This document shows, piece after piece, positions 49,603 to 57,657 of a stretch of 64,000 bases of DNA. The notes under the pieces are model-generated. The model was not told the DNA's origin, ran no database searches, and saw nothing but the letters and a program-made list of their open reading frames with translations. Every line of letters starts with the position of its first letter. Position 1 is the first letter of the stretch. The position numbers and the translations under genes are program-made. This DNA is from an uncultured delta proteobacterium (GTDB lineage: Bacteria; Desulfobacterota; Binatia; UBA9968), in assembly GCA_963804165.1 (NCBI GenBank), contig CAWDPO010000041.1, positions 1 to 64,000 on the forward strand, read 5' to 3'.

Positions 49603-50346
49603 TTAACGGCCCCCACGTTTCGTCTTGATCTCGTAACCGAACAGATCGCTGCGATAGAAACCGGCCGTGCGCAGAACAAGTTTCTTCTTGTGTAAATAAT
49701 TTCGCTCGACGAACAACACAGGGGAGCCGGTGGGGATTTCCAAGTGGGCCGAAACCTGGTGGTCCGCGAGCTTGGCGCTGACAACCAGCTTGAGGCCAGC
49801 AATCTTGATCCCCAGCCGGTCTTCAATGATGTTCGTGAGCGGCTGTTTCAGCAGCCGGTCTCGCGGGACCTTATCAAGCATGCGGGCGGGGACGTAGGAA
49901 TTCACGAACGCGAGGGGGCGACCGTATGCCATCCTCACCCGCGTGATCTTCGTGATTTTTTCATCCGCATCCAAGTTAAAATCTCGGCGCAGCTCTGGCG
50001 CGGCCGTTTTTGTGTCGATCCGCAGCACTTTGAAGCTCGTACCTTCCGGATTGATGCTCACAAGATTTGCCGCATCGATTTCGAGATTAATCGGCTGCTT
50101 GACCGGTCCGCTCCAGGTGACGAAAGTTCCCTTGGCGCGCTCGCGGCGCACCAAGCCTTCGCGGGTCAAGTCTGCGAGGGCTTGGCGAACCGTGATGACG
50201 CTAACGTCGAGGCGTCGCGCCAGATCCAATTCGCCGGGGAGCTGGAATCCCGTGCGCCATTCGCCCGATAAAATATTGTCGCGGAAAGCGGTCATGACTT
50301 TAAAGTAGAGCGGCACTGGAGAGGGAGAACTGCTAGCGAGGCGCAT
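49603..50346 (-). CDS. GntR/HutC (UTRA) transcriptional regulator
   Basis: PLYFKV, LPGELDLARRLDVSVITVRQAL, KGTFV, UTRA-like C-terminus. Confidence 0.9.
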   Translation of the reverse strand: MRLASSSPSPVPLYFKVMTAFRDNILSGEWRTGFQLPGELDLARRLDVSVITVRQALADLTREGLVRRERAKGTFVTWSGPVKQPINLEIDAANLVSINPEGTSFKVLRIDTKTAAPELRRDFNLDADEKITKITRVRMAYGRPLAFVNSYVPARMLDKVPRDRLLKQPLTNIIEDRLGIKIAGLKLVVSAKLADHQVSAHLEIPTGSPVLFVERNYLHKKKLVLRTAGFYRSDLFGYEIKTKRGGR

Positions 50347-50391: not shown

Positions 50392-51069
50392 TTATGGCGA
50401 GTTTTCCTTGGATCGTGCCGCGGCAGGAATTGTTCGTAGCGCTTCCAAGATCTGCTCGTTGGTGGGTCTCTTCTTATAGTCTGTTTCAATAAAGCGCCAA
50501 CGCACGACACCCTGTTTGTCGATGACATAAGTCGCCGGGTGCGGCCAGCCCTTGTTGTTCGGATTTAAGATTCCATACCGGTTGATGACCTTGTGATCTT
50601 TGTCTTCGAGTAGCGGAAAATCGAGATCGCCGGTAAATCTCTCTTTGAGTTTTTGCACGAATTTTTTCGAATCATCGTGACTGTCGACGCTGACCGCGAG
50701 GATTTGAACCTGATTTTTTTCCTCTTTGGTTAGGAGGCCTTTCAGCTCACCGAGCTGTTGTGTGCAGTAGGGTCACCATTGGCCACGATAAAACACCAAT
50801 ACAACATTCATTTTGCGATAGACTTCTGAAAGAGTAATTCTCCGTCCATCCAAGTTTTCAAGCGTAAAGTCCGGCGCGGTATCCCCGACTTTGACTCTCT
50901 CCAGGTCGGTCGGCGGCAGATCCGCGACGTCTTTAGGGCCTAATTGTGCATTAGCCACGGCAACGGCTAGGTAAAGGAAACTGAATGCAATCGTTATTGC
51001 TAAGCGGTTTCGGAAAGTAGAGCTTTCTCTTGGACGCTCGATACGCCAAATGTGTTTTCCCCACGTCAT
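50392..51069 (-). CDS. Predicted selenoprotein: exported peroxiredoxin-like (AhpC/TSA) protein, UxxC, Sec at TGA 50773-50775
   Basis: Two in-frame ORFs join as FYRGQW-U-PYCTQQL; hairpin CAGCUC-GGU-GAGCUG with loop at +22. Confidence 0.88.
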
Positions 51070-51214
51070 GGCAATTGTCTCCTTTCGTCACAAAGTAAAT
51101 CCAGATCATTTACACCGCTCGTTATCCAGCGTTACGTCACGGTCTATGAACGATATTCCGCGACAATAGGTTTCCGGATCGAGCAAATCGTCAAATGAGC
51201 ATCACAGCGCCCGC

Positions 51215-51706
51215 CTATTGTTGTTGCGCCTTTCTCTTTTTGAAGAACTGGATATGACTCAACGCGTCGGCGGCAACGATACGTCCGATGGGGCCGATAC
51301 TGTACGAGGCATCACACACCTTTTTGTCCGAATCCAGGATGAAATTCGTGGCGTGGATGATCTTTCTACGCTCTTCCCAGAAAGCGCCGACCTTGTCGGC
51401 GTCTCTCGGCACTTCAAGTCCATAGGCCACGGGAAAGGTGAGTTGCAACTTGTCGACGGTCTCTTTCGCTTTGTCCAAGGGGTCGACCGAGAGAGCCACC
51501 ACGTCGACATTTTCCTTTTTGAATTCTTCGATGTGGGATTGGTAGTCGGCCAACTGCCGCATGCAGTACGGTCACCAACTGCCGCGATAGAAAATCAGCG
51601 CGGCGTACTCGCCCGTGAGGTCCTGGGGCAGACGAAGTGTTTGACCGGCGGTCGTTTGCACCTGGTACTCCGGGAACGAATAGCCAAAGTTGAGCTGTCG
51701 TGCCAT
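51215..51706 (-). CDS. Predicted selenoprotein: peroxiredoxin-like (AhpC/TSA) protein, UxxC, Sec45 at TGA 51572-51574
   Basis: GGGGAG RBS, ATG at 51706, MARQLNFG..IFYRGSW-U-PYCMRQL in frame; weaker hairpin GG(C)AGUU-GGCC-GACU(A)CC. Confidence 0.85.
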
Positions 51707-51929
51707 ATATTCTCCCCTCAGAATTTAATCATCGAACTTCGAACCCCTGCGCAGTTGCGACGCTACCCACCGAACTTCGCGTTGCTCCAGGCGGTCATCG
51801 ACTTGGGATTTCGCGACGCGCATGTTGACTGCTTATATGATTAATAGTAGGAGGTCAATTGATTTGTGTCGCTGGCGTGCTGTGTAAATTCGCCGCGGCG
51901 CGACAATTTTTATGGGGGAGGTTCTCATT

Positions 51930-52439
51930 ATGGCGGAGCATTCAGCAGGGAAGAGCGGCCAGCCGGGAGGAATGCCCGGCCGTCCGATCGGCACGGTGCG
52001 CGTCGATATCGCGCGCCAGGAGCACAAAACGTTCGAGGCGGTTTTCAAGACCGAGGACAAGTCATTTCAGCTCATGATCGACGAGCCGGAAATTCGCGGC
52101 GGCAAAGGCACGGGCCCGACGCCGCTGGGTTACTTCGTCACCGGCGCGGCTTCCTGCTTGATGATGCAGTACGCCAACGTTTTGAAGGAGAAGCCGATGC
52201 CGGTGGAAAGCATCAAGATGCTGGCGCGGGCGCACAACGACCGCGACGCGCGGGTCTTCACCGATATGATTTACCAGGTCGATCTCACCGGGTCGATCTC
52301 CGAGGCCGATGCGGAAACGCTGGCAAAGGCGGCCAGTGCGCGCTGCTTCGTAGAGAACACTATCGCCAAGGCGCTGCCGATCACGACAGAAGTAAGCGTC
52401 AATGGAAAAAAGGTCGTGTCGTTCACACGAAATAGTTAA
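51930..52439 (+). CDS. OsmC-like protein (Cys form)
   Basis: DEPEIRGGKGTGPTPLGYFVTGAASCL and ARCFVENT; GGAGG RBS. Confidence 0.88.
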   Translation: MAEHSAGKSGQPGGMPGRPIGTVRVDIARQEHKTFEAVFKTEDKSFQLMIDEPEIRGGKGTGPTPLGYFVTGAASCLMMQYANVLKEKPMPVESIKMLARAHNDRDARVFTDMIYQVDLTGSISEADAETLAKAASARCFVENTIAKALPITTEVSVNGKKVVSFTRNS

Positions 52440-52475
52440 ATCGCCCATCCACCGCGGGAAGATTAGGAAATCACG

Positions 52476-52637
52476 ATGATCCACCTTTACTACTGGACTA
52501 CGCCGAACGGACACAAGATCACGATCTTCCTAGAGGAAGCTGGGCTGCCGTATTCGATCAAACCGGTCAATATTTCCGTGGTCGGCATGATACCGCGGTC
52601 GGGTGGGAAACGGTTAATCGACGCCTGCAACCGGTAA
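52476..52637 (+). pseudogene. Truncated YfcG-like glutathione S-transferase N-terminus
   Basis: MIHLYYWTTPNGHKITIFLEEAGLPYSIKPVNI followed by an unrelated tail and a stop after 53 aa. Confidence 0.75.
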
Positions 52638-52651
52638 GAGGAGAGCGGGTT

Positions 52652-53323
52652 ATGCCCTGGATTAAAATAATTGCCGAGCATGAAGCCGAGGGCGAGCTTA
52701 AAGAGGTCTATAGGAAGATCCGCGAGCAGCGTCAGGGTGAGAAGATCAACCAGGATCGCGATGCGTCCGCCGGCGGGCCGCCGGTGAGCCCGCCGATGCT
52801 GCACAGTCTGAATCCCAAAGCGATGTGGCACACCGCCGAGCTGATGTGGGAGATCATGCGCGGGGAGTCGCGGCTGACCACGGCGCAGCGCGAGATGATC
52901 GCCACCGTGACATCGGCGACGCTGCACTGCCGCTTCTGAACCGTCGCCCACGCAGAGTTTCTGCGTCAGGAAGGCGGCGACGATTTATCGGTAGAGCAAG
53001 TCAAAGACGATTGGCGGCAGATGGAGCTGACCGAAGCCGAGTACACAATGTTGGAATTTGCGGAGAAACTAACGCTCACGCCGAGCAACATGCGCGAAGC
53101 GGACGTGCAGAAATTGCGCGACGTCGGCTGGACCGATCGCGACATCCTCGATATCGTCCACGTGTGCGCCTATTTTAACTTTCGTGTGCGAGTCGTCGAC
53201 GGGCTCGGACTGGAAGTTGCCGATTGGCAGATCCAGCGCGCGAGAGCCGGCGCGCAGCGCGCCGCCAAGTTGGCTGAAGAGCGCGGTGTGGCCATGCCAT
53301 CTGATCCTTGGAAGACACGTTGA
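52652..53323 (+). CDS. Predicted selenoprotein: AhpD/CMD-like peroxidase-related protein, CxxU, Sec96 at TGA 52937-52939
   Basis: REMIATVTSATLHCRF-U-TVAHAEFL continues in frame to AEKLTLTP..AYFNFRVR; hairpin ACGCAGA-GUU-UCUGCGU with lower stem CGUCGCC/GGCGACG. Confidence 0.9.
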
Positions 53324-53332
53324 GGAAAAGTA

Positions 53333-53980
53333 ATGAGCTTCATCAAAGTTATTTACGAGTCCGAAGCGACGGGCGAGCTAAAAGAAGTTTACGAGAGAAC
53401 GCTTAGTCGCTTAAGTCCATCCGTGCGCCAGCGACGCGGCGACAAGCTGCCACCGATCGTGAGAATTTTTAGCCTTTGTCCGGCGCTGCTCGAAGCGCGG
53501 GTGGGCTTCGACAAGGGCATTTACCGGCCCGGCCATTCCGGCTTGGGCCGGCGCAAGGAAGAGCTGATCGCGACTCAGGTGGCGGCGCTGAGTGGCTGCC
53601 GGTTTTGAGGCATCGGCCACGGAGAGTTTCTCCGTGTCGACGGCAAGATGGCGGTGGAGGAAGTCGCCAAGGTGATCTCCAACTGGCGTGAGGCCGATCT
53701 GGACGAGCAGGAAAAAGCCATGCTCGCGTTCACCGAAAAGTTTACACTCACGCCGAGTCAAATGACCGACGCCGATCTCGAGAAGCTGCGCCAGGCGGGC
53801 TTCAGCGACGAACAGATTCTTTCCATCGCTTTGGGCGCCGGCTATCGAAACTGGGTGGATCGCATCGCTGATCTGCTCGGCGTCGAGGAAGAAAAGTTCG
53901 ACTTCCCGGAGGAAATTTTGAAAGCCTTCGGCGTCACCCGCGAGCAGCTTGAGACCTCGCTCTACGAGGATAACCGATGA
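53333..53980 (+). CDS. Predicted selenoprotein: AhpD/CMD-like protein, CxxU, Sec92 at TGA 53606-53608
   Basis: ELIATQVAALSGCRF-U-GIGHGEFL in frame; hairpin CACGGAGA-GUU-UCUCCGUG. Confidence 0.9.
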
Positions 53981-54420
53981 GCCGCTTGCAGACCGTCATG
54001 GGAACGAGAATCGCGGATCTGCTTGGCGCGGCGCCGGGCGCGCTCGAAGCGGACAGCGCCATGCGCACTCTGCTCATCGAACATTTGACGCCGCGGCTCT
54101 TCAGTTTGATCGGTATCGTGGTAGCCGGTTGCCTCCGCTGCGAGCGTTTCGCCGACGCGCTGCGCGCCCCACTGGATCAGCCATCGGCCCAACAGGCTGC
54201 CCGTGATTGGCGGGCGCTTGAACTTTCGGCGGCGGAAAAGGCGATACTTGCCTACGCGGAAAAGGGGACTCTCGACGAGGCCTCGGTGCGCTGGCGGGAC
54301 GTAGATCAGCTACGCGCGGCGGGTCTCGACGACAGGGATATTCTCCTGATCGCAACGGCTATCGCTTATCATAATTACTCGATTCGCATGGCAGCGGCTT
54401 TTGACGTCGCGCCGTGCTGA
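53977..54420 (+). CDS. AhpD/CMD-like protein, CxxC form
   Basis: GCLRCER, LSAAEKAILAYAEK, LRAAGLDDRDIL; ATGA overlap with the previous gene. Confidence 0.8.
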   Translation: MSRLQTVMGTRIADLLGAAPGALEADSAMRTLLIEHLTPRLFSLIGIVVAGCLRCERFADALRAPLDQPSAQQAARDWRALELSAAEKAILAYAEKGTLDEASVRWRDVDQLRAAGLDDRDILLIATAIAYHNYSIRMAAAFDVAPC

Positions 54421-54456
54421 GGGTGTCGGCGTACAAAAAACCAGCGCGCGAAAAGA

Positions 54457-55395
54457 ATGTACGTTCTTGAAGTTTGGAAGGATTATGGCATGCGCGGAAT
54501 AACTCCTAGACGAGAGCAAGGGATGGCAGATCCGGTGTTGGCCGAGATGGTTCATGCAACGGGCGCTACGGAGTCCCGCCACTACGCGGCGGTGAAACCG
54601 ACCATTCAGGCCTATCGCGCCAGTTGGGTGAAATTGGCGCCCTATCGAGATGGTCCCGTGAATTCGCAGCGGGTCCAGGTCGACGACCCCGCGGGGATAA
54701 CTGCACAGGTCAAAGCGAAAGCGATGGAGTTGGGCGCGAACCTGATCGGGGTCTGCCGCTTGCAGCCGCATATGATCGATCTCGGCTCGGAGGTATCACA
54801 GGAGTTCGTGATCGCGTGCTGCGTCGCGGAGGATTACGATAAGGTCTTGCGGGGCGCAGATGCGGTGGAAGAAGAGGCGATGCGAACCTATGCGAAGTGC
54901 ACCGAGATCGCCACGGCGCTGGCCGCTTACGTGCGCGAGATGGGCTACCCGGCGATCGCCCACCACAACGGCGCCAGCGAGGTGCAAGCGATACCGATTT
55001 TCTATCAAGTCGGGTTCGGCGAGCTGGGCCGCCACGGCAGTTTGATCAACGAAAAATACGGCGCGAGTTTTCGTCCGGGTTTCGTGACGACGGACCTGCC
55101 GCTGGTGGAAGATCAGCCGCGGGAATTCGGCGTGCAGGACTTCTGCATGAACTGCAACGTCTGCCAGCGCAACTGTCCGGGCGATGCGATACCGCAGGAT
55201 CATGTGGTCACCCACGGCATCAAACGTTGGCTGATCGATCTAGAGAAATGTTATCCCTACTCGCGACTGCGCGAAGAGTACTGTCATCTCTGCGTCGACG
55301 CGTGTCCGTATATCGTGAAGTCTTATCCCGAAACCTATAGAGCGTTCATGAAGGAGCGCAAACAAGTGGGCTACAAGACGCCGAAAACATATTGA
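54457..55395 (+). CDS. Reductive dehalogenase / QueG-like double [4Fe-4S] protein (start may be downstream)
   Basis: GFGELGRHGSLINEKYG..VTTDLPL, FCMNCNVCQRNCP, C-x10-CHLCVDACP; no Tat signal. Confidence 0.8.
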   Translation: MYVLEVWKDYGMRGITPRREQGMADPVLAEMVHATGATESRHYAAVKPTIQAYRASWVKLAPYRDGPVNSQRVQVDDPAGITAQVKAKAMELGANLIGVCRLQPHMIDLGSEVSQEFVIACCVAEDYDKVLRGADAVEEEAMRTYAKCTEIATALAAYVREMGYPAIAHHNGASEVQAIPIFYQVGFGELGRHGSLINEKYGASFRPGFVTTDLPLVEDQPREFGVQDFCMNCNVCQRNCPGDAIPQDHVVTHGIKRWLIDLEKCYPYSRLREEYCHLCVDACPYIVKSYPETYRAFMKERKQVGYKTPKTY

Positions 55396-55673
55396 TGGAA
55401 ACCGACGATCAGGGAGGATTCTCCCGCCAAGGCGCAAAGGCGCCAAGTTCGGAAAGTTTCACAATGGAAAAACTCTACGTTAACGAAATCGGTCCCGATG
55501 GCGCCGTCAGCACCGTAGGCTTGTTTTACTCGCAGGCCGAGGCCGAAAAGATTGTCGGCATGCTGCGCGCCAATCCAGACCGAGCAAGCTATAGGTATGA
55601 AATCGTCGAAGCAGTCAGACATATCTTGTCTGAGAAGCAAGCGCGTCGGGCCGTGGCCGGTCAGAAGGAGTAG
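55392..55673 (+). CDS. Small hypothetical protein (start possibly at the MEKLYV ATG)
   Basis: Fills the gap in the operon and abuts the RBS of the next gene. Confidence 0.5.
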   Translation: MMETDDQGGFSRQGAKAPSSESFTMEKLYVNEIGPDGAVSTVGLFYSQAEAEKIVGMLRANPDRASYRYEIVEAVRHILSEKQARRAVAGQKE

Positions 55674-55675
55674 CC

Positions 55676-56227
55676 ATGCCCTATATTAAAACGGTGCCGC
55701 CGGCCGAGGCTACCGGCAAACTCAAAGAAGTCTATGAGTCGGGCTCCGGCCCATCGGCGGCGCGCGGCAAGGTCTCTATGATCCGCCAGGTGCAAAGCCT
55801 CAATCCCGACAACCTCGCCGCCTGGCGCGCGCTCGACGTATCGATCATGCGCGGCGAATCGCGCATCACGCGCCGCCAACGCGAGATGATCGCGACGGTG
55901 GTGTCGGCGACCAATCACTGCAGCTATTGAATGACCGCGCACGGAGAGGCTCTCCGTACCGAATCGAACGACGATCCTCTGGTCGAAGGGATTAAACAAG
56001 ATTACACACAGTTGAATTTATCCCCGGCAGAGCGGGCCATGTTGGATTACGCGGTCAAATTGACGGTCGCACCGTCGACGGCGAGTGAAACGGATATCCA
56101 TACTCTACGCACCCACGGCTTCGACGACCGCGACATTTTGGATATCGTCTACGTGATCTGCCTTTACAATTTCAACGACCGGATGGCCGATGCCGCCGGC
56201 ATTACCGGGCATGATTTTTTTAGATGA
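55676..56227 (+). CDS. Predicted selenoprotein: AhpD/CMD-like protein, CxxU, Sec85 at TGA 55928-55930
   Basis: REMIATVVSATNHCSY-U-MTAHGEAL; hairpin ACGGAGA-GGC-UCUCCGU. Confidence 0.9.
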
Positions 56228-56274
56228 GATCATTCAATCGTTCGAGTGTAACGCCCAGTTAGATAGGAGGAAGC

Positions 56275-56820
56275 ATGAGCAAACCCTTAGGCAGGATCGA
56301 TCGAGAAGCGTTTCGGCAAGTGCACAAGGAGCAACAAGAACGGGCGAAACAGGGGCCGGAAGGCTATACGACAACGACGCGGGCGGTGATCAGGCTCATA
56401 GAAAACCAATTGAAAGAGGCGCGCATCGGCGAATACACCATTCAATGCGATGAGGCGAAGTCGCGCAAGGGCGGCGGCAAGGCGCCGTCACCGCTGCAAT
56501 ACTTCGTCGCGGCGACCGGCTTTTGAATGTTCAGCCAACTGGCGCGGTACGCGTCACAACTGGACATCGAAATCGAGGACGCCGAGATGGATATCCGAAT
56601 GACCTATGACACGCGAGGGAAATTGCTGCTGGAAGACGTGTCGCCGGGGTGCAATGATCTGACCTACGTTTTCAAGATTAAGAGCCCGGCGCCGTCCGAC
56701 AAGGTGCAAGAGATGCTGCGGCTGATCGAGAAGGGCTGCCACACGATCAATTCATTGAAAAATCCCGTGCCGGTCGCCGGAAAGCTGATTCATAACGGTC
56801 AGGAGATCGCCGCGCTGTGA
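56275..56820 (+). CDS. Predicted selenoprotein: OsmC-like protein, Sec84 at TGA 56524-56526
   Basis: PSPLQYFVAATGF-U-MFSQL aligns with PTPLGYFVTGAAS-C-LMMQ of the Cys paralogue; second Cys in KGCHT; hairpin AUGUUCAG..UGGCGCG-GUA-CGCGUCA..CUGGACAU. Confidence 0.9.
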
Positions 56821-56868: not shown

Positions 56869-57657
56869 ATGATCGAGCTTTATCACAACGATATGTCGGT
56901 TTGCGCGCAGAAGGTGCGATTCGCCTTGGCGGAAAAGAAGCTTTCCTGGGAGGGGCACCATCTAAATCTTCGCGCCGGCGATCAGCAGAAGCCGGAATAT
57001 TTAAAACTTAATCCCAACGCGGTGGTGCCGACTTTGGTGGACGATGGGAACGTTATTATCGAGTCTACGGTGATCTGCGAATATCTCGACGATACCTATC
57101 CTGAGCCAAAGCTTAAACCCGCCGATGCGCTGGGGCGGGCGCGCATGCGCTTATGGACCAAGCAGCTCGACGAAGGCGTGCACGCGGCAACCAGCGTCGT
57201 CAGCTCGGCCATCGCGTTTCGCTATCAGAAGCTCGCTATCGGCATGGAAGCGCTCGAAGAGTTTCACGAGAAGATGCCCGACCCGGTGAAGCGGGAAAAA
57301 AGCTGGGAGAATGTCACCAAGGGCGTCGAATCGCGTTTCTTTCCCGAGGCGATCAAGCGCTTCGACAGGCTGCTCGCGGACATGGAAGTGTCGTTGACAG
57401 ACTCGCCGTGGCTTGCCGGCCGGGAATTTTCCCTCGCGGATATTGGCTACGCTCCGTACATCACTCGGCTCGATCATCTGCAGTTGCAGTTTCTCTGGGA
57501 CAAGCGGCCCCATATCCCCGATTGGTACGACCGCTTGCGTGAACGCCGTGCTTACAACGAGGCGCTGGAAAAATGGTTCAACGCGAATTACCTGCCGCTA
57601 ATGAAAGAAAAGGGTCTCGAAGTTCGCGACAAAATCAAAGCGATTGTGGCGGGATAA
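56869..57657 (+). CDS. Glutathione S-transferase family protein
   Basis: SVCAQKVR, LNPNAVVPTL, IESTVICEYLD, FSLADI. Confidence 0.92.
   Translation: MIELYHNDMSVCAQKVRFALAEKKLSWEGHHLNLRAGDQQKPEYLKLNPNAVVPTLVDDGNVIIESTVICEYLDDTYPEPKLKPADALGRARMRLWTKQLDEGVHAATSVVSSAIAFRYQKLAIGMEALEEFHEKMPDPVKREKSWENVTKGVESRFFPEAIKRFDRLLADMEVSLTDSPWLAGREFSLADIGYAPYITRLDHLQLQFLWDKRPHIPDWYDRLRERRAYNEALEKWFNANYLPLMKEKGLEVRDKIKAIVAG

What the first reader, a model, noticed from the sequence alone, without database searches (positions are those of the whole stretch)
50392..56820. Six predicted selenoproteins packed into a 6.4 kb redox cluster
Seen: six genes appear in the ORF track as split or truncated ORFs, each broken by one in-frame TGA (50773, 51572, 52937, 53606, 55928, 56524). 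Every TGA sits at a redox Cys position: W-U-PYC in two peroxiredoxin-like genes, C-x-x-U-x-x-x-H in three AhpD-like genes, and the first catalytic Cys of an OsmC-like gene. Known: UGA plus a downstream hairpin is decoded as selenocysteine by SelB/tRNA-Sec, and Sec forms of these three families have been reported individually. Inference: this is a selenium-based thiol-redox or detoxification system that standard annotation would break into short fragments or pseudogenes. The other lesions in the window are indels, so six TGAs at catalytic sites are unlikely to be sequencing error.
Basis: partly seen in the sequence, partly recalled or inferred. Interest (0 to 1): 0.92.

Follow-up and report, generated by a model that had tools for sequence, protein, structure and literature searches.

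The report
Six selenoprotein genes in one cluster
A soil or sediment bacterium of the uncultured group Binatia carries six neighbouring redox-enzyme genes that each use a stop codon to insert selenocysteine; the enzyme families are already known to do this, but six in 6.4 kb is unusually dense.

Summary
Six genes at 50392-56820 each carry one in-frame TGA at the stated coordinates.

All six belong to families already listed as selenoproteins. Two are Prx-like (UxxC), three AhpD-like (CxxU-x3-H, above the TIGR01926 cut-off), and one OsmC-like (above the NF041052 '(seleno)protein' cut-off).

Every orthologue and paralogue I found keeps the TGA at the same column, in Binatia and Dehalococcoidia assemblies. 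A hairpin follows each TGA. In the AhpD-like genes it shows compensatory pair changes and suppressed synonymous variation.

The genome has tRNA-Sec, selA, selD (itself with a TGA) and selB. TGA is also its commonest ordinary stop.

One caveat: selB is cut by three frame changes in this assembly. The assembly has at least 220 similar breaks, and selB is intact in 24 of 27 relatives with a hit.

The cluster also holds a GntR regulator, Cys paralogues, a small NpRdhA-like Fe-S protein and a GST. It is conserved in the genus. The genome has at least 29 predicted Sec genes.

Verdict: real selenoprotein genes, new members of known families. The cluster equals the largest described selenoprotein operon in gene number. 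Interest is moderate, and function is inferred only.

The parts
50392..51069 (-). G1: Prx-like (AhpC/TSA fold) selenoprotein gene, 225 aa. It has an N-terminal hydrophobic signal-like segment and the motif W-U-P-Y-C, with Sec codon TGA at 50775-50773. The true stop is TAA.
   Evidence: ORFs, sequence; PF00578, 128.6 bits, residues 61-191 across U99; column alignment; TGA kept in the one orthologue found; stop codon. The signal peptide is read from the sequence and was not run through a predictor.
50743..50757 (-). Candidate SECIS hairpin of G1: CAGCUC-GGU-GAGCUG, starting 18 nt after the U of UGA.
   Evidence: It is kept in the orthologue with only a loop change, GGU to GGC. Hairpin score 9.0; 16% of 4000 background TGA sites reach this score.
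51215..51706 (-). G2: Prx-like selenoprotein gene, 163 aa, no signal segment, motif W-U-P-Y-C, with Sec codon TGA at 51574-51572. The true stop is TAG.
   Evidence: PF00578, 79.3 bits, residues 8-130 across U45; TGA in 6 distinct orthologue contexts; 66%-identical Sec paralogue on contig C2.
51547..51559 (-). Candidate SECIS core of G2: CGGC-AGUUG-GCCG, starting 15 nt after the U of UGA. A competing hairpin, ACUGC-AUGCG-GCAGU, lies at 51553-51567.
   Evidence: The stem sequence is the same in the window and the 6 distinct orthologue contexts, and in the C2 paralogue. No covariation is available, so which hairpin acts is not settled.
52652..53323 (+). G3: AhpD-like (CMD family) selenoprotein gene, 223 aa, motif C-R-F-U-T-V-A-H, with Sec codon TGA at 52937-52939. 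The true stop is TGA.
   Evidence: PF02627; TIGR01926, 131.5 bits, cut-off 81.8; TGA in 41 distinct orthologue contexts.
52950..52966 (+). SECIS hairpin of G3: ACGCAGA-GUU-UCUGCGU, starting 13 nt after the U of UGA.
   Evidence: covariation; synonymous-site conservation.
53333..53980 (+). G4: AhpD-like selenoprotein gene, 215 aa, motif C-R-F-U-G-I-G-H, with Sec codon TGA at 53606-53608. The true stop is TGA, overlapping the next start (ATGA).
   Evidence: TIGR01926, 99.0 bits; 10 distinct orthologue contexts with TGA.
53618..53636 (+). SECIS hairpin of G4: CACGGAGA-GUU-UCUCCGUG.
   Evidence: score 11.5; 4.4% of background sites reach 11.
55676..56227 (+). G5: AhpD-like selenoprotein gene, 183 aa, motif C-S-Y-U-M-T-A-H, with Sec codon TGA at 55928-55930. 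The true stop is TGA.
   Evidence: TIGR01926, 141.1 bits; U aligns with the second Cys of CxxC in 2pfx, 3c1l and 6k40; 12 distinct contexts.
55941..55957 (+). SECIS hairpin of G5: ACGGAGA-GGC-UCUCCGU.
56275..56820 (+). G6: OsmC-like selenoprotein gene, 181 aa, with U84 (TGA 56524-56526) at the first conserved Cys and C155 at the second. The true stop is TGA.
   Evidence: NF041052 'OsmC-related (seleno)protein', 151 bits, cut-off 95; U aligns with Cys of 3cje, and the second Cys also aligns; 9 orthologue contexts plus 1 distant paralogue with TGA.
56540..56556 (+). SECIS hairpin of G6: UGGCGCG-GUA-CGCGUCA, starting 16 nt after the U of UGA.
   Evidence: A distant paralogue (L052, 29% identity) has GUCCCG-GUU-CGGGAC at the same place, which means two stem pairs changed on both sides (read).
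51912..52439 (+). OsmC-like gene with Cys (A-S-C-L-M-M) at the column where G6 has U. It is the first gene of the plus-strand gene row.
   Evidence: PF02566, 61.1 bits; NF041052, 90.8 bits, just under the cut-off of 95; no comparable hairpin after its Cys codon, score 6.5.
53977..54420 (+). Short AhpD-like paralogue with C-L-R-C (Cys form) and no His four residues on.
   Evidence: PF02627, 18.4 bits, below cut-off; TIGR01926, 54.1 bits, below cut-off; hairpin score 7.0; kept in the cluster in relatives.
54490..55395 (+). Fe-S protein of 301 aa related to the cobalamin and 2x[4Fe-4S] core of the catabolic reductive dehalogenase NpRdhA.
   Evidence: 4ras, E 1.9e-51; PceA 4uqu, E 3.5e-22; TIGR02486 RDH, 115 bits, below the cut-off of 160.35; Fer4 families. 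The start at 54490 is taken from where orthologues begin to align.
55464..55673 (+). Small conserved protein of 69 aa with no known family, always found between the RdhA-like gene and G5.
   Evidence: synteny; no Pfam family; nearest Atlas clusters are 69-aa hypothetical proteins, commonest in Candidatus Binatota, scores 0.95 and 0.94.
56869..57657 (+). Glutathione S-transferase, last gene of the plus-strand row.
   Evidence: GST_N_3 69.4 bits, GST_C_2 39.6 bits; synteny.
49603..50346 (-). GntR/UTRA-type transcription regulator, downstream of G2 and G1 on the minus strand.
   Evidence: PF00392 58.7 bits, PF07702 78.1 bits; kept next to the cluster in relatives.

Best explanation
The six TGAs are selenocysteine codons. 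During translation SelB, carrying Sec-tRNA(Sec), binds a short hairpin (bacterial SECIS) that starts 12-18 nt after the U of each UGA and inserts Sec instead of terminating.

The products are six thiol/selenol redox proteins:
- Two thioredoxin-fold 'Prx-like' oxidoreductases with a U-x-x-C pair. G1 probably works outside the cytoplasm and G2 inside.
- Three AhpD-like proteins with a C-x-x-U-x3-H centre.
- One OsmC-like hydroperoxide reductase, with Sec at the peroxidatic position and Cys155 as its partner.

The genes form two divergent gene rows sharing a 205-bp spacer. On the minus strand: G2, G1, GntR regulator. On the plus strand: OsmC(Cys), G3, G4, AhpD-like(Cys), NpRdhA-like Fe-S protein, 69-aa protein, G5, G6, GST.

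What is shown here: the codons, the families, conservation of the TGA, the RNA hairpins and their covariation, the Sec genes in the genome, and conservation of the cluster in the genus.

What is inferred: that Sec is actually inserted in this organism; that the rows are operons under the GntR regulator; and that the cluster reduces peroxides, disulfides or reactive electrophiles.
For: (1) Reading TGA as U gives one continuous ORF per gene, with a Pfam domain across the U in 6 of 6.

(2) G3, G4 and G5 pass the curated cut-off of TIGR01926, and G6 passes that of NF041052 'OsmC-related (seleno)protein'. A 2026 review lists AhpD-like/TIGR01926 (CxxU), Prx-like thiol:disulfide oxidoreductase/PF00578 (UxxC) and OsmC-like/PF02566 as selenoprotein families (passages).

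(3) Solved homologues have Cys at the U column: 2pfx, 3c1l and 6k40 for G5 and 3cje for G6.

(4) The TGA is conserved.
- 13 of 13 G3 orthologues at 58-100% identity across four genera of the order carry exactly one TGA.
- 39 of 39 loci from the GTDB species set have TGA at the column, including Dehalococcoidia and SAR202 records at 73-78% identity.
- Distinct 51-nt contexts with TGA number G1 1, G2 6, G3 41, G4 10, G5 12 and G6 9, plus extra paralogues.

(5) SECIS. A 7-bp stem follows the UGA in all AhpD-like genes. 97.5% of 476 cells pair. Two pairs change on both sides (C-G/G-C 41:27; A-U/G-C 62:6) and one changes by wobble. 0 of 500 shuffles reach the observed pairing or covariation score, and slid controls give 23-65% pairing. 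Third-codon-position entropy is 0.00-0.60 bits at the four positions inside the stem, against 0.80-1.68 in the flanks. For example, Leu is CTG in 41 of 41 sequences. Cys paralogues in the cluster lack such hairpins.

(6) Machinery: tRNA-Sec (76 bits, cut-off 47; also found by ARAGORN), selA (610 bits), selB (357 bits) and selD (385 bits, itself with one in-frame TGA).

(7) TGA is not reassigned. It ends 6 of the 12 cluster genes and 1543 of 3739 ORFs of 300 aa or more. The only tca-anticodon tRNA is tRNA-Sec.

(8) At least 22 further genes elsewhere in the genome show the same pattern in families known for Sec, among them GrdB-like, UGSC, rhodanese, ArsC and an FdhA-like molybdopterin oxidoreductase.
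Against: - selB in this assembly is split over three reading frames between about residues 405 and 600, while rpoB and rpoC are unbroken. If real, Sec insertion would be dead in this strain.
- Minimum free energies of the 60 nt after each UGA are not clearly below shuffles (z from -0.07 to -2.04; only G3 has 7 of 200 shuffles as good).
- A hairpin as good as those of G3 and G5 follows 8% of background TGA sites, and one as good as G2's follows 39%. The hairpins count only through their conservation.
- The G2 SECIS is not resolved: there are two competing hairpins and no covariation.
- One tblastn piece (L069, 55% identity to G4) placed GAG at the column, although the same locus has a G4-type TGA context. 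I did not resolve this.
- There is no expression, proteomic or selenium-labelling evidence.
- The function and operon structure are inferred. The promoter/terminator scan found fewer sites than shuffles did.
Confidence: 0.9

Rival explanations
1. These are ancestral selenoprotein genes that are now silent in this strain. On this reading selB has really been inactivated by frameshifts, so the six UGAs terminate translation here and the cluster is at the start of decay.
For: selB is cut by three frame changes within about 600 nt, while 8 kb of rpoB/rpoC and the roughly 9 kb cluster show none. No second selB was found; the other TIGR00475 hits are ordinary GTPase-like matches below the cut-off.
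Against: - At least 220 frameshift-like junctions supported by paralogues are spread over the genome, often several in one gene. This points to assembly indels, and fits 81% estimated completeness for 7.5 Mb in 46 contigs.
- selB lies in one open frame across model positions 2-580 in 24 of 27 relatives with a hit.
- All six genes, and at least 22 other Sec genes, keep open frames and hairpins after the TGA.
- selA, selD and tRNA-Sec are intact.
Confidence: 0.08
2. The TGAs are sequencing errors or inactivating nonsense mutations, and the six genes are pseudogenes or artefacts.
For: The assembly has many lesions. Under table 11 each gene is split in two.
Against: - The lesions are frame changes, not substitutions.
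- The same TGA at the same column recurs in dozens of independent assemblies from two phyla.
- Zero-difference short-read contigs of other runs cover 3 of the 6 codons (pieces 10, 27 and 32).
- Flanking codons vary synonymously while the TGA and the stem do not.
Confidence: 0.01
3. UGA is read as another residue (Trp, Gly or Cys) through a changed genetic code or general read-through, not as selenocysteine.
For: The prfB search gave a best hit below the curated cut-off (288 bits, cut-off 370), so release factor 2 was not positively identified.
Against: - TGA is the commonest stop of long ORFs (41%) and ends 6 of the 12 cluster genes.
- tRNA-Trp has anticodon cca, and the only tca tRNA is tRNA-Sec.
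- The in-frame TGAs fall at Cys-type catalytic columns and are followed by conserved hairpins.
- The prfB hit starts at model position 16 in a 369-aa frame. That would also fit a true prfB with its usual programmed frameshift (recalled, not tested).
Confidence: 0.02

Closest known systems
AhpD-like selenoproteins ('AhpD-like 1/2' of the Global Ocean Sampling selenoproteome; TIGR01926 row of the 2026 review table)
   Same: CMD/AhpD fold, C-x-x-U motif with U in place of the second Cys, and one Sec per protein. G3-G5 score above the TIGR01926 cut-off.
   Different: Here there are three diverged paralogues (37-47% identical) side by side with a Cys paralogue, in Binatia rather than marine plankton. 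No biochemical data exist for either.
Prx-like thiol:disulfide oxidoreductase selenoproteins (PF00578, UxxC)
   Same: AhpC/TSA fold with U-x-x-C. Neighbouring Prx-like and AhpD-like Sec genes were already noted once in metagenome reads and are mentioned in the review.
   Different: They are not the characterised Sec-peroxiredoxin PrxU: NF040737 scores 50.8 and 22.3 bits against a cut-off of 270. The U is at the Thr/Ser column of the Prx motif, not at the peroxidatic Cys.
OsmC-related (seleno)protein, NCBIfam NF041052
   Same: G6 scores 151 bits (cut-off 95). U is at the first catalytic Cys column and Cys at the second.
   Different: None seen at the family level. The review gives the motif as UxxT; here it is U-M-F-S.
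SAO (Sec-assisted organometallic) operon and Tso operon, named in the 2026 review as the largest selenoprotein operons
   Same: Many Sec genes are packed together. The SAO operon is reported with six selenoprotein genes, the same number as here (section 9 read in full).
   Different: The families and the presumed chemistry differ. Here the six genes lie on two strands (4 + 2), so not in a single operon. I did not compare sequences with SAO or Tso proteins.
Mycobacterium tuberculosis AhpC/AhpD and Ohr/OsmC hydroperoxide reductases (recalled from general knowledge, not from a call)
   Same: The same folds and the same catalytic columns (CxxC-x3-H in AhpD; two Cys in OsmC/Ohr). This suggests peroxide or disulfide reduction.
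   Different: Those enzymes use Cys only. Their reductant partners (lipoyl proteins) were not sought here.
NpRdhA, catabolic reductive dehalogenase (PDB 4ras)
   Same: The 301-aa Fe-S protein in the middle of the cluster aligns with residues 345-571 of 4ras at E 1.9e-51.
   Different: It is less than half the length of NpRdhA (704 aa) and below the TIGR02486 cut-off (115 against 160.35 bits). Cobalamin-binding residues and activity were not tested.

Membership tests
Bacterial selenoprotein gene (Sec-UGA) | One in-frame UGA inside an otherwise continuous ORF, with homology on both sides | tested here: met
   6 of 6 genes.
Bacterial selenoprotein gene (Sec-UGA) | Cys (or Sec) at the aligned column in homologues | tested here: met
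   G5 aligns with Cys in 2pfx, 3c1l and 6k40. G6 aligns with Cys in 3cje. For G1, genome paralogues carry C (1), U (1) or T (4), and the solved Bcp 2cx3 has Ser. G2, G3 and G4 were tested only through paralogues and orthologues that carry U.
Bacterial selenoprotein gene (Sec-UGA) | SECIS hairpin shortly downstream of the UGA | tested here: met
   G3-G5: conserved 7-bp stem with compensatory changes. G6: 7-bp stem, with two pairs changed on both sides in a distant paralogue. G1: 6-bp stem kept in 1 orthologue. G2: inconclusive, with two competing short hairpins.
Bacterial selenoprotein gene (Sec-UGA) | selA, selB, selD and tRNA-Sec in the genome | tested here: inconclusive
   tRNA-Sec, selA and selD are above their cut-offs and open. 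selB is above its cut-off but cut by three frame changes in this assembly. It is intact in 24 of 27 relatives with a hit.
Bacterial selenoprotein gene (Sec-UGA) | UGA conserved in orthologues rather than replaced by other stops | tested here: met
   No orthologue of 55% identity or more had another codon at the column, apart from one unresolved tblastn piece in L069.
Bacterial selenoprotein gene (Sec-UGA) | Selenium shown in the protein | not testable with these tools
   Needs 75Se labelling or mass spectrometry.
AhpD-like selenoprotein (TIGR01926, CxxU) | Score above the curated cut-off, and the C-x-x-U-x3-H motif | tested here: met
   131.5, 99.0 and 141.1 bits against 81.8; motifs read.
OsmC-related (seleno)protein (NF041052) | Score above the curated cut-off, with U at the first and Cys at the second catalytic column | tested here: met
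   151 bits against 95; alignment to 3cje.
Prx-like thiol:disulfide oxidoreductase selenoprotein (PF00578, UxxC) | AhpC/TSA domain above cut-off with a U-x-x-C motif | tested here: met
   128.6 and 79.3 bits against 26; W-U-P-Y-C.
Sec-peroxiredoxin PrxU (NF040737) | Score above the curated cut-off, with Sec at the peroxidatic Cys (TxxU) | tested here: not met
   50.8 and 22.3 bits against 270. The U lies three residues before the peroxidatic column.
Reductive dehalogenase (TIGR02486), for the Fe-S protein at 54490-55395 | Score above the curated cut-off | tested here: not met
   115 bits against 160.35. It resembles the NpRdhA core but is not filed as an RDH.

The most novel reading that the evidence does not exclude
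The conserved core of the cluster (NpRdhA-like Fe-S protein, 69-aa protein, AhpD-like Sec protein, OsmC-like Sec protein, GST) may be one pathway. In it, selenol/thiol proteins would feed electrons to a minimal cytoplasmic cobalamin dehalogenase, or clear its reactive products. That would be a first link between selenoproteins and catabolic dehalogenation or electrophile detoxification, in a phylum (Binatota) for which my searches found no selenoprotein work.
Probability: 0.1. Interest if true: 0.7.

Novelty: new member of a known kind. Interest (0 to 1): 0.45.

Why it matters
The finding gives a well-supported, conserved example of six Sec genes packed together. That equals the number reported for the largest described selenoprotein operon.

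It lies in Binatia. Two full-text searches found no selenoprotein study of this group: 'Binatota' with 'selenocysteine' gave 1 paper, seen in the listing only, and 'Binatia' with 'selenoprotein' gave 0.

With at least 29 predicted Sec genes in a genome estimated 81% complete, the organism is selenoprotein-rich. The largest selenoproteomes quoted in print are 57-63 genes.

In practice, table-11 gene callers will split or truncate these genes unless they apply selenoprotein models.

The side-by-side Sec and Cys paralogues, and the three AhpD-like copies with covarying SECIS stems, make a natural test set for SECIS rules and for asking what Sec offers over Cys.

Tried and rejected

- **Expression.** The look-up of sequencing runs listed no RNA holder, and no run held more than 0.12 of the sampled words. 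Expression and the source reads therefore could not be examined.

- **Read laying** on contigs of four runs. Zero-difference pieces cover three of the six TGAs: 52937 (piece 10), 51572 (piece 27) and 56524 (piece 32). Diverged pieces cover the other three. None of the 40 listed 'other letters' falls on a Sec codon, but 578 further rows were not shown, so this is only weak support.

- **Fold energies.** The 60-nt windows are not clearly lower than shuffles, and hairpin presence alone is common. I rejected both as stand-alone evidence and relied on conservation and covariation.

- **Promoter and terminator scan.** It found 2 and 6 sites against shuffle means of 4.4 and 11.4, which says nothing about the operons. 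The repeat search in the 205-bp divergent spacer found only a 12-nt direct pair and an 8-nt inverted pair. No operator is claimed.

- **prfB search** was ambiguous.

- **selB indels.** DNA alignment of selB to a relative was too diverged to place the indels. Protein-level frames were used instead.

- A row filter returned 0 rows through an indexing mistake. It was redone.

- **Genome-wide scan.**
  - From 51,504 TGA sites with open flanks, 2,418 passed a coding filter and 172 had C or U aligned in a paralogue. A stricter best-frame and hairpin filter listed 184.
  - I hand-picked 40 for Pfam. 22 were supported.
  - 5 were ordinary stops: EF-G, and four tctB/tctA junctions.
  - 13 remained unresolved: L098, L099, L102, L103, L104, L106 and L114-L120.
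  - The picking was by eye for redox-like motifs. The count of 29 is therefore a lower bound and not a census.

- **Dehalococcoidia context** of the G3 orthologue (L059) showed no redox cluster, so it gave no functional lead.

- **Not run:** structure prediction, complex prediction, the large protein searches and a phylogeny. The family assignments did not need them.

- **Supplements** of the papers were not opened. BSepDB and the groundwater MAG survey cited in the review may already list these proteins.

Full report
**Observation**

Under table 11, the region 50392-56820 shows six genes, each as two abutting ORFs in one frame separated by a single TGA. Reading TGA as U joins each pair into one ORF of 163-225 aa.

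From the sequence the codons lie at:
- 50775-50773 and 51574-51572 on the minus strand;
- 52937-9, 53606-8, 55928-30 and 56524-6 on the plus strand.

Pfam domains run across the U in all six: AhpC/TSA in G1 and G2, CMD (AhpD fold) in G3, G4 and G5, and OsmC in G6.

**Position of the U**

- G5: the U aligns with the second Cys of the CxxC centre of three solved AhpD-like proteins, 2pfx, 3c1l and 6k40.
- G6: the U aligns with the first conserved Cys of the solved OsmC-like protein 3cje, and Cys155 aligns with the second.
- G1: the U aligns with the Ser of the Bcp motif 'fSpvC', and the Cys three residues later aligns with the peroxidatic Cys.

W-U-P-Y-C is therefore a thioredoxin-type CxxC centre with Sec at the first position, inside a peroxiredoxin fold. 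This matches the 'Prx-like thiol:disulfide oxidoreductase (UxxC)' row of the table in the 2026 review PMC13188914 (passages). It does not match the Sec-peroxiredoxin PrxU, whose NCBIfam model the two proteins fail (50.8 and 22.3 bits, cut-off 270).

G3, G4 and G5 pass TIGR01926, which the review names as the AhpD-like selenoprotein family (CxxU). G6 passes NF041052, 'OsmC-related (seleno)protein'.

**Conservation of the TGA**

- A six-frame search of 40 relatives found G3 orthologues at 58-91% identity in 12 of them, each with exactly one TGA. It also found many paralogues with one TGA.
- A scan of the GTDB species set returned 39 loci. The record titles name Candidatus Binatia (older labels: Deltaproteobacteria, Syntrophobacter) at 83-93% identity, and Dehalococcoidia, SAR202 or Chloroflexota at 73-78%.
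- In all 39 loci the codon at the U column is TGA.
- Across all loci held, the distinct 51-nt contexts with TGA number 1 (G1), 6 (G2), 41 (G3), 10 (G4), 12 (G5) and 9 (G6), plus extra paralogues.
- The only other codons seen at the column came from low-identity alignments to the Cys paralogue and from one unresolved piece in L069.

**SECIS**

Each UGA is followed by a hairpin.

In the three AhpD-like genes it is a 7-bp stem with a 3-nt loop that begins with G. It starts 13 nt after the U of UGA and is built from the codons for H-(A/G)-E-(F/A)-L-R. On 68 distinct sequences:
- 97.5% of 476 cells pair;
- pair 17-27 is C-G in 41 sequences and G-C in 27;
- pair 20-24 is A-U in 62 and G-C in 6;
- pair 18-26 shows G-U in 7;
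- 0 of 500 column shuffles reach the observed pairing or covariation score;
- sliding the partner by 1-3 columns drops pairing to 23-65%.

Among 41 distinct G3-type sequences, third-codon positions inside the stem have 0.00-0.60 bits of entropy, against 0.80-1.68 bits in the flanks. Leu is always CTG, and the first loop base is always G.

G6 has UGGCGCG-GUA-CGCGUCA. A 29%-identical paralogue has GUCCCG-GUU-CGGGAC at the same place.

G1 has CAGCUC-GGU-GAGCUG.

G2 has two competing short hairpins. The one at the G1-like distance (CGGC-AGUUG-GCCG) is kept in the orthologues and in a 66%-identical Sec paralogue on contig C2. I leave G2 open.

The limits of this evidence:
- Fold energies of the 60-nt windows are not clearly below shuffles.
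- Hairpins of this quality follow 8-39% of background TGA sites.

The weight therefore lies on conservation and covariation. The rule of 16-37 nt between the UGA and the apical loop is recalled from the bSECISearch literature and was not tested.

**Machinery and code**

The genome is 7.5 Mb in 46 contigs, estimated 81% complete with 5% contamination. It has:
- tRNA-Sec (ARAGORN, and Rfam at 76 bits);
- a selA-selB-selD row on contig C16;
- selD itself with an in-frame TGA.

TGA is the commonest stop of ORFs of 300 aa or more (1543 of 3739) and the true stop of G3, G4, G5 and G6. A changed code is therefore excluded.

**The selB caveat**

selB is split over three frames between about residues 405 and 600, whereas rpoB and rpoC are intact.

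A genome-wide test found at least 220 frameshift-like junctions where both halves match one paralogue in consecutive order, often several in one gene. selB lies in one frame in 24 of 27 relatives with a hit.

I could not see the reads, because the source run is not indexed.

**Anatomy and context**

Two gene rows diverge from a 205-bp spacer.
- Minus strand: G2, G1, then a GntR/UTRA regulator.
- Plus strand: an OsmC-like Cys paralogue; a 53-aa remnant of a GST N-terminus (weak); G3; G4; a short AhpD-like Cys paralogue; a 301-aa Fe-S protein; a 69-aa protein of no family; G5; G6; and a GST.

The Fe-S protein matches the core of the catabolic reductive dehalogenase NpRdhA (4ras, E 1.9e-51) but is below the RDH model's cut-off.

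The cluster recurs in the genus with varying content. The Fe-S protein, 69-aa protein and G5 (usually with G6) are the most constant part. Three other loci (L053, L072, L048) also carry six Sec genes.

In Dehalococcoidia only the G3 orthologue is present, in an unrelated context. Together with 73-78% identity across phyla, this suggests transfer of the gene with its SECIS.

**Mechanism**

The recoding elements are shown, as set out above. The chemistry is inferred from the families, and the points below are recalled rather than taken from a call.
- AhpD uses CxxC-x3-H to reduce peroxides or to reduce AhpC.
- OsmC and Ohr use a peroxidatic and a resolving Cys.
- CxxC thioredoxin-fold proteins exchange disulfides.

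With Sec at the attacking position, each would form a selenenylsulfide with its partner Cys. G1's signal-like N-terminus suggests one member acts outside the cytoplasm; this is read from the sequence and was not predicted by a tool.

The most likely role is reduction of hydroperoxides, disulfides or reactive electrophiles. A link to the RdhA-like enzyme is possible but untested.

**Known or new**

All three families are listed as selenoproteins. Neighbouring Prx-like and AhpD-like Sec genes have been seen before. The largest described selenoprotein operon, SAO, has six Sec genes.

Full-text searches found no selenoprotein work on Binatota or Binatia. BSepDB's text does not mention them, but the database may hold them.

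Elsewhere in this genome, 22 more TGA genes have a Pfam domain across or abutting the U:
- CMD: 5
- GrdB-like: 4
- UGSC: 3
- rhodanese: 3
- AhpC/TSA fold: 3 (two UxxC and one TxxU)
- OsmC: 1
- ArsC: 1
- Sulf_transp: 1
- molybdopterin oxidoreductase: 1

With selD and the six, that gives at least 29. The largest published counts are 57-63.

**Verdict**

These are genuine selenoprotein genes (confidence 0.9), new members of known families, in an unusually dense and conserved cluster. Interest is moderate at 0.45.

Noticed in passing
G000 contig C16, about 140,939-142,891 (outside the window): selB is split over three reading frames between about residues 405 and 600. All three shifts go in the same direction, so the last domain returns to the first frame. 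selA upstream and selD downstream are open.
   Followed up: partly
whole genome G000: At least 220 frameshift-like junctions where two adjacent ORFs in different frames match consecutive parts of one paralogue, often several in one gene. This suggests an indel-rich assembly, or many pseudogenes.
   Followed up: partly
window 55421-55453: A 33-nt element with a small GGCGC-AAAG-GCCGC-type hairpin lies in the spacer between the RdhA-like gene and the 69-aa gene. It has 7 copies (5 or fewer mismatches) in the genome. In metagenome contigs laid on the window it shows a sharp depth spike with loose ends on both sides, so it looks like a REP-like repeat.
   Followed up: partly
window 54490-55395: A 301-aa protein matching only the cobalamin/Fe-S core of the 704-aa catabolic dehalogenase NpRdhA (E 1.9e-51). 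It sits inside the selenoprotein cluster and is duplicated in tandem in one relative (L041).
   Followed up: partly
loci L057-L068, L071, L073, L074, L079: G3 orthologues at 73-78% protein identity occur in Dehalococcoidia, SAR202 and Chloroflexota MAGs, with the TGA and the same SECIS stem but without the rest of the cluster. This looks like cross-phylum transfer.
   Followed up: partly
G000 contigs C11 (52528-53841, 85343-86683), C45 (202938-204278), C10 (45836-46255): Four GrdB/PrdB-like genes with T-U-G-T/S motifs and GGC-loop hairpins. The C10 copy is only a 140-aa fragment.
   Followed up: partly
G000 contigs C43:35708-36496, C18:12563-13102, C2:206680-207711, C23:126612-127508: Further candidate Sec genes: a YeeE/YedE-type Sulf_transp protein with G-F-U-P-G-T-C (Pfam domain across the U); a DUF411 protein with T-U-D-C-C; a TIR-domain protein with a C-terminal G-U-D-H-C; and an unassigned protein with Y-U-P-F-C. 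All but the first are unconfirmed.
   Followed up: partly
G000 contig C14, 67641-67910 and 73568-73921: Two 91%-identical short CMD-family genes with C-D-P-U and an identical hairpin, about 6 kb apart.
   Followed up: no
window 52476-52637: A 53-aa ORF whose first ~33 residues resemble a GST N-terminus (below Pfam cut-offs). It is probably a gene remnant between the OsmC(Cys) gene and G3, and is absent from the same spacer in relative L034.
   Followed up: partly
relatives G026-G040 (family f3, genus g3): These genomes have selB (7 of 7 searched) but no match to the AhpD-like Sec protein (0 of 11 searched). Sec use is order-wide, while this protein family is not.
   Followed up: no
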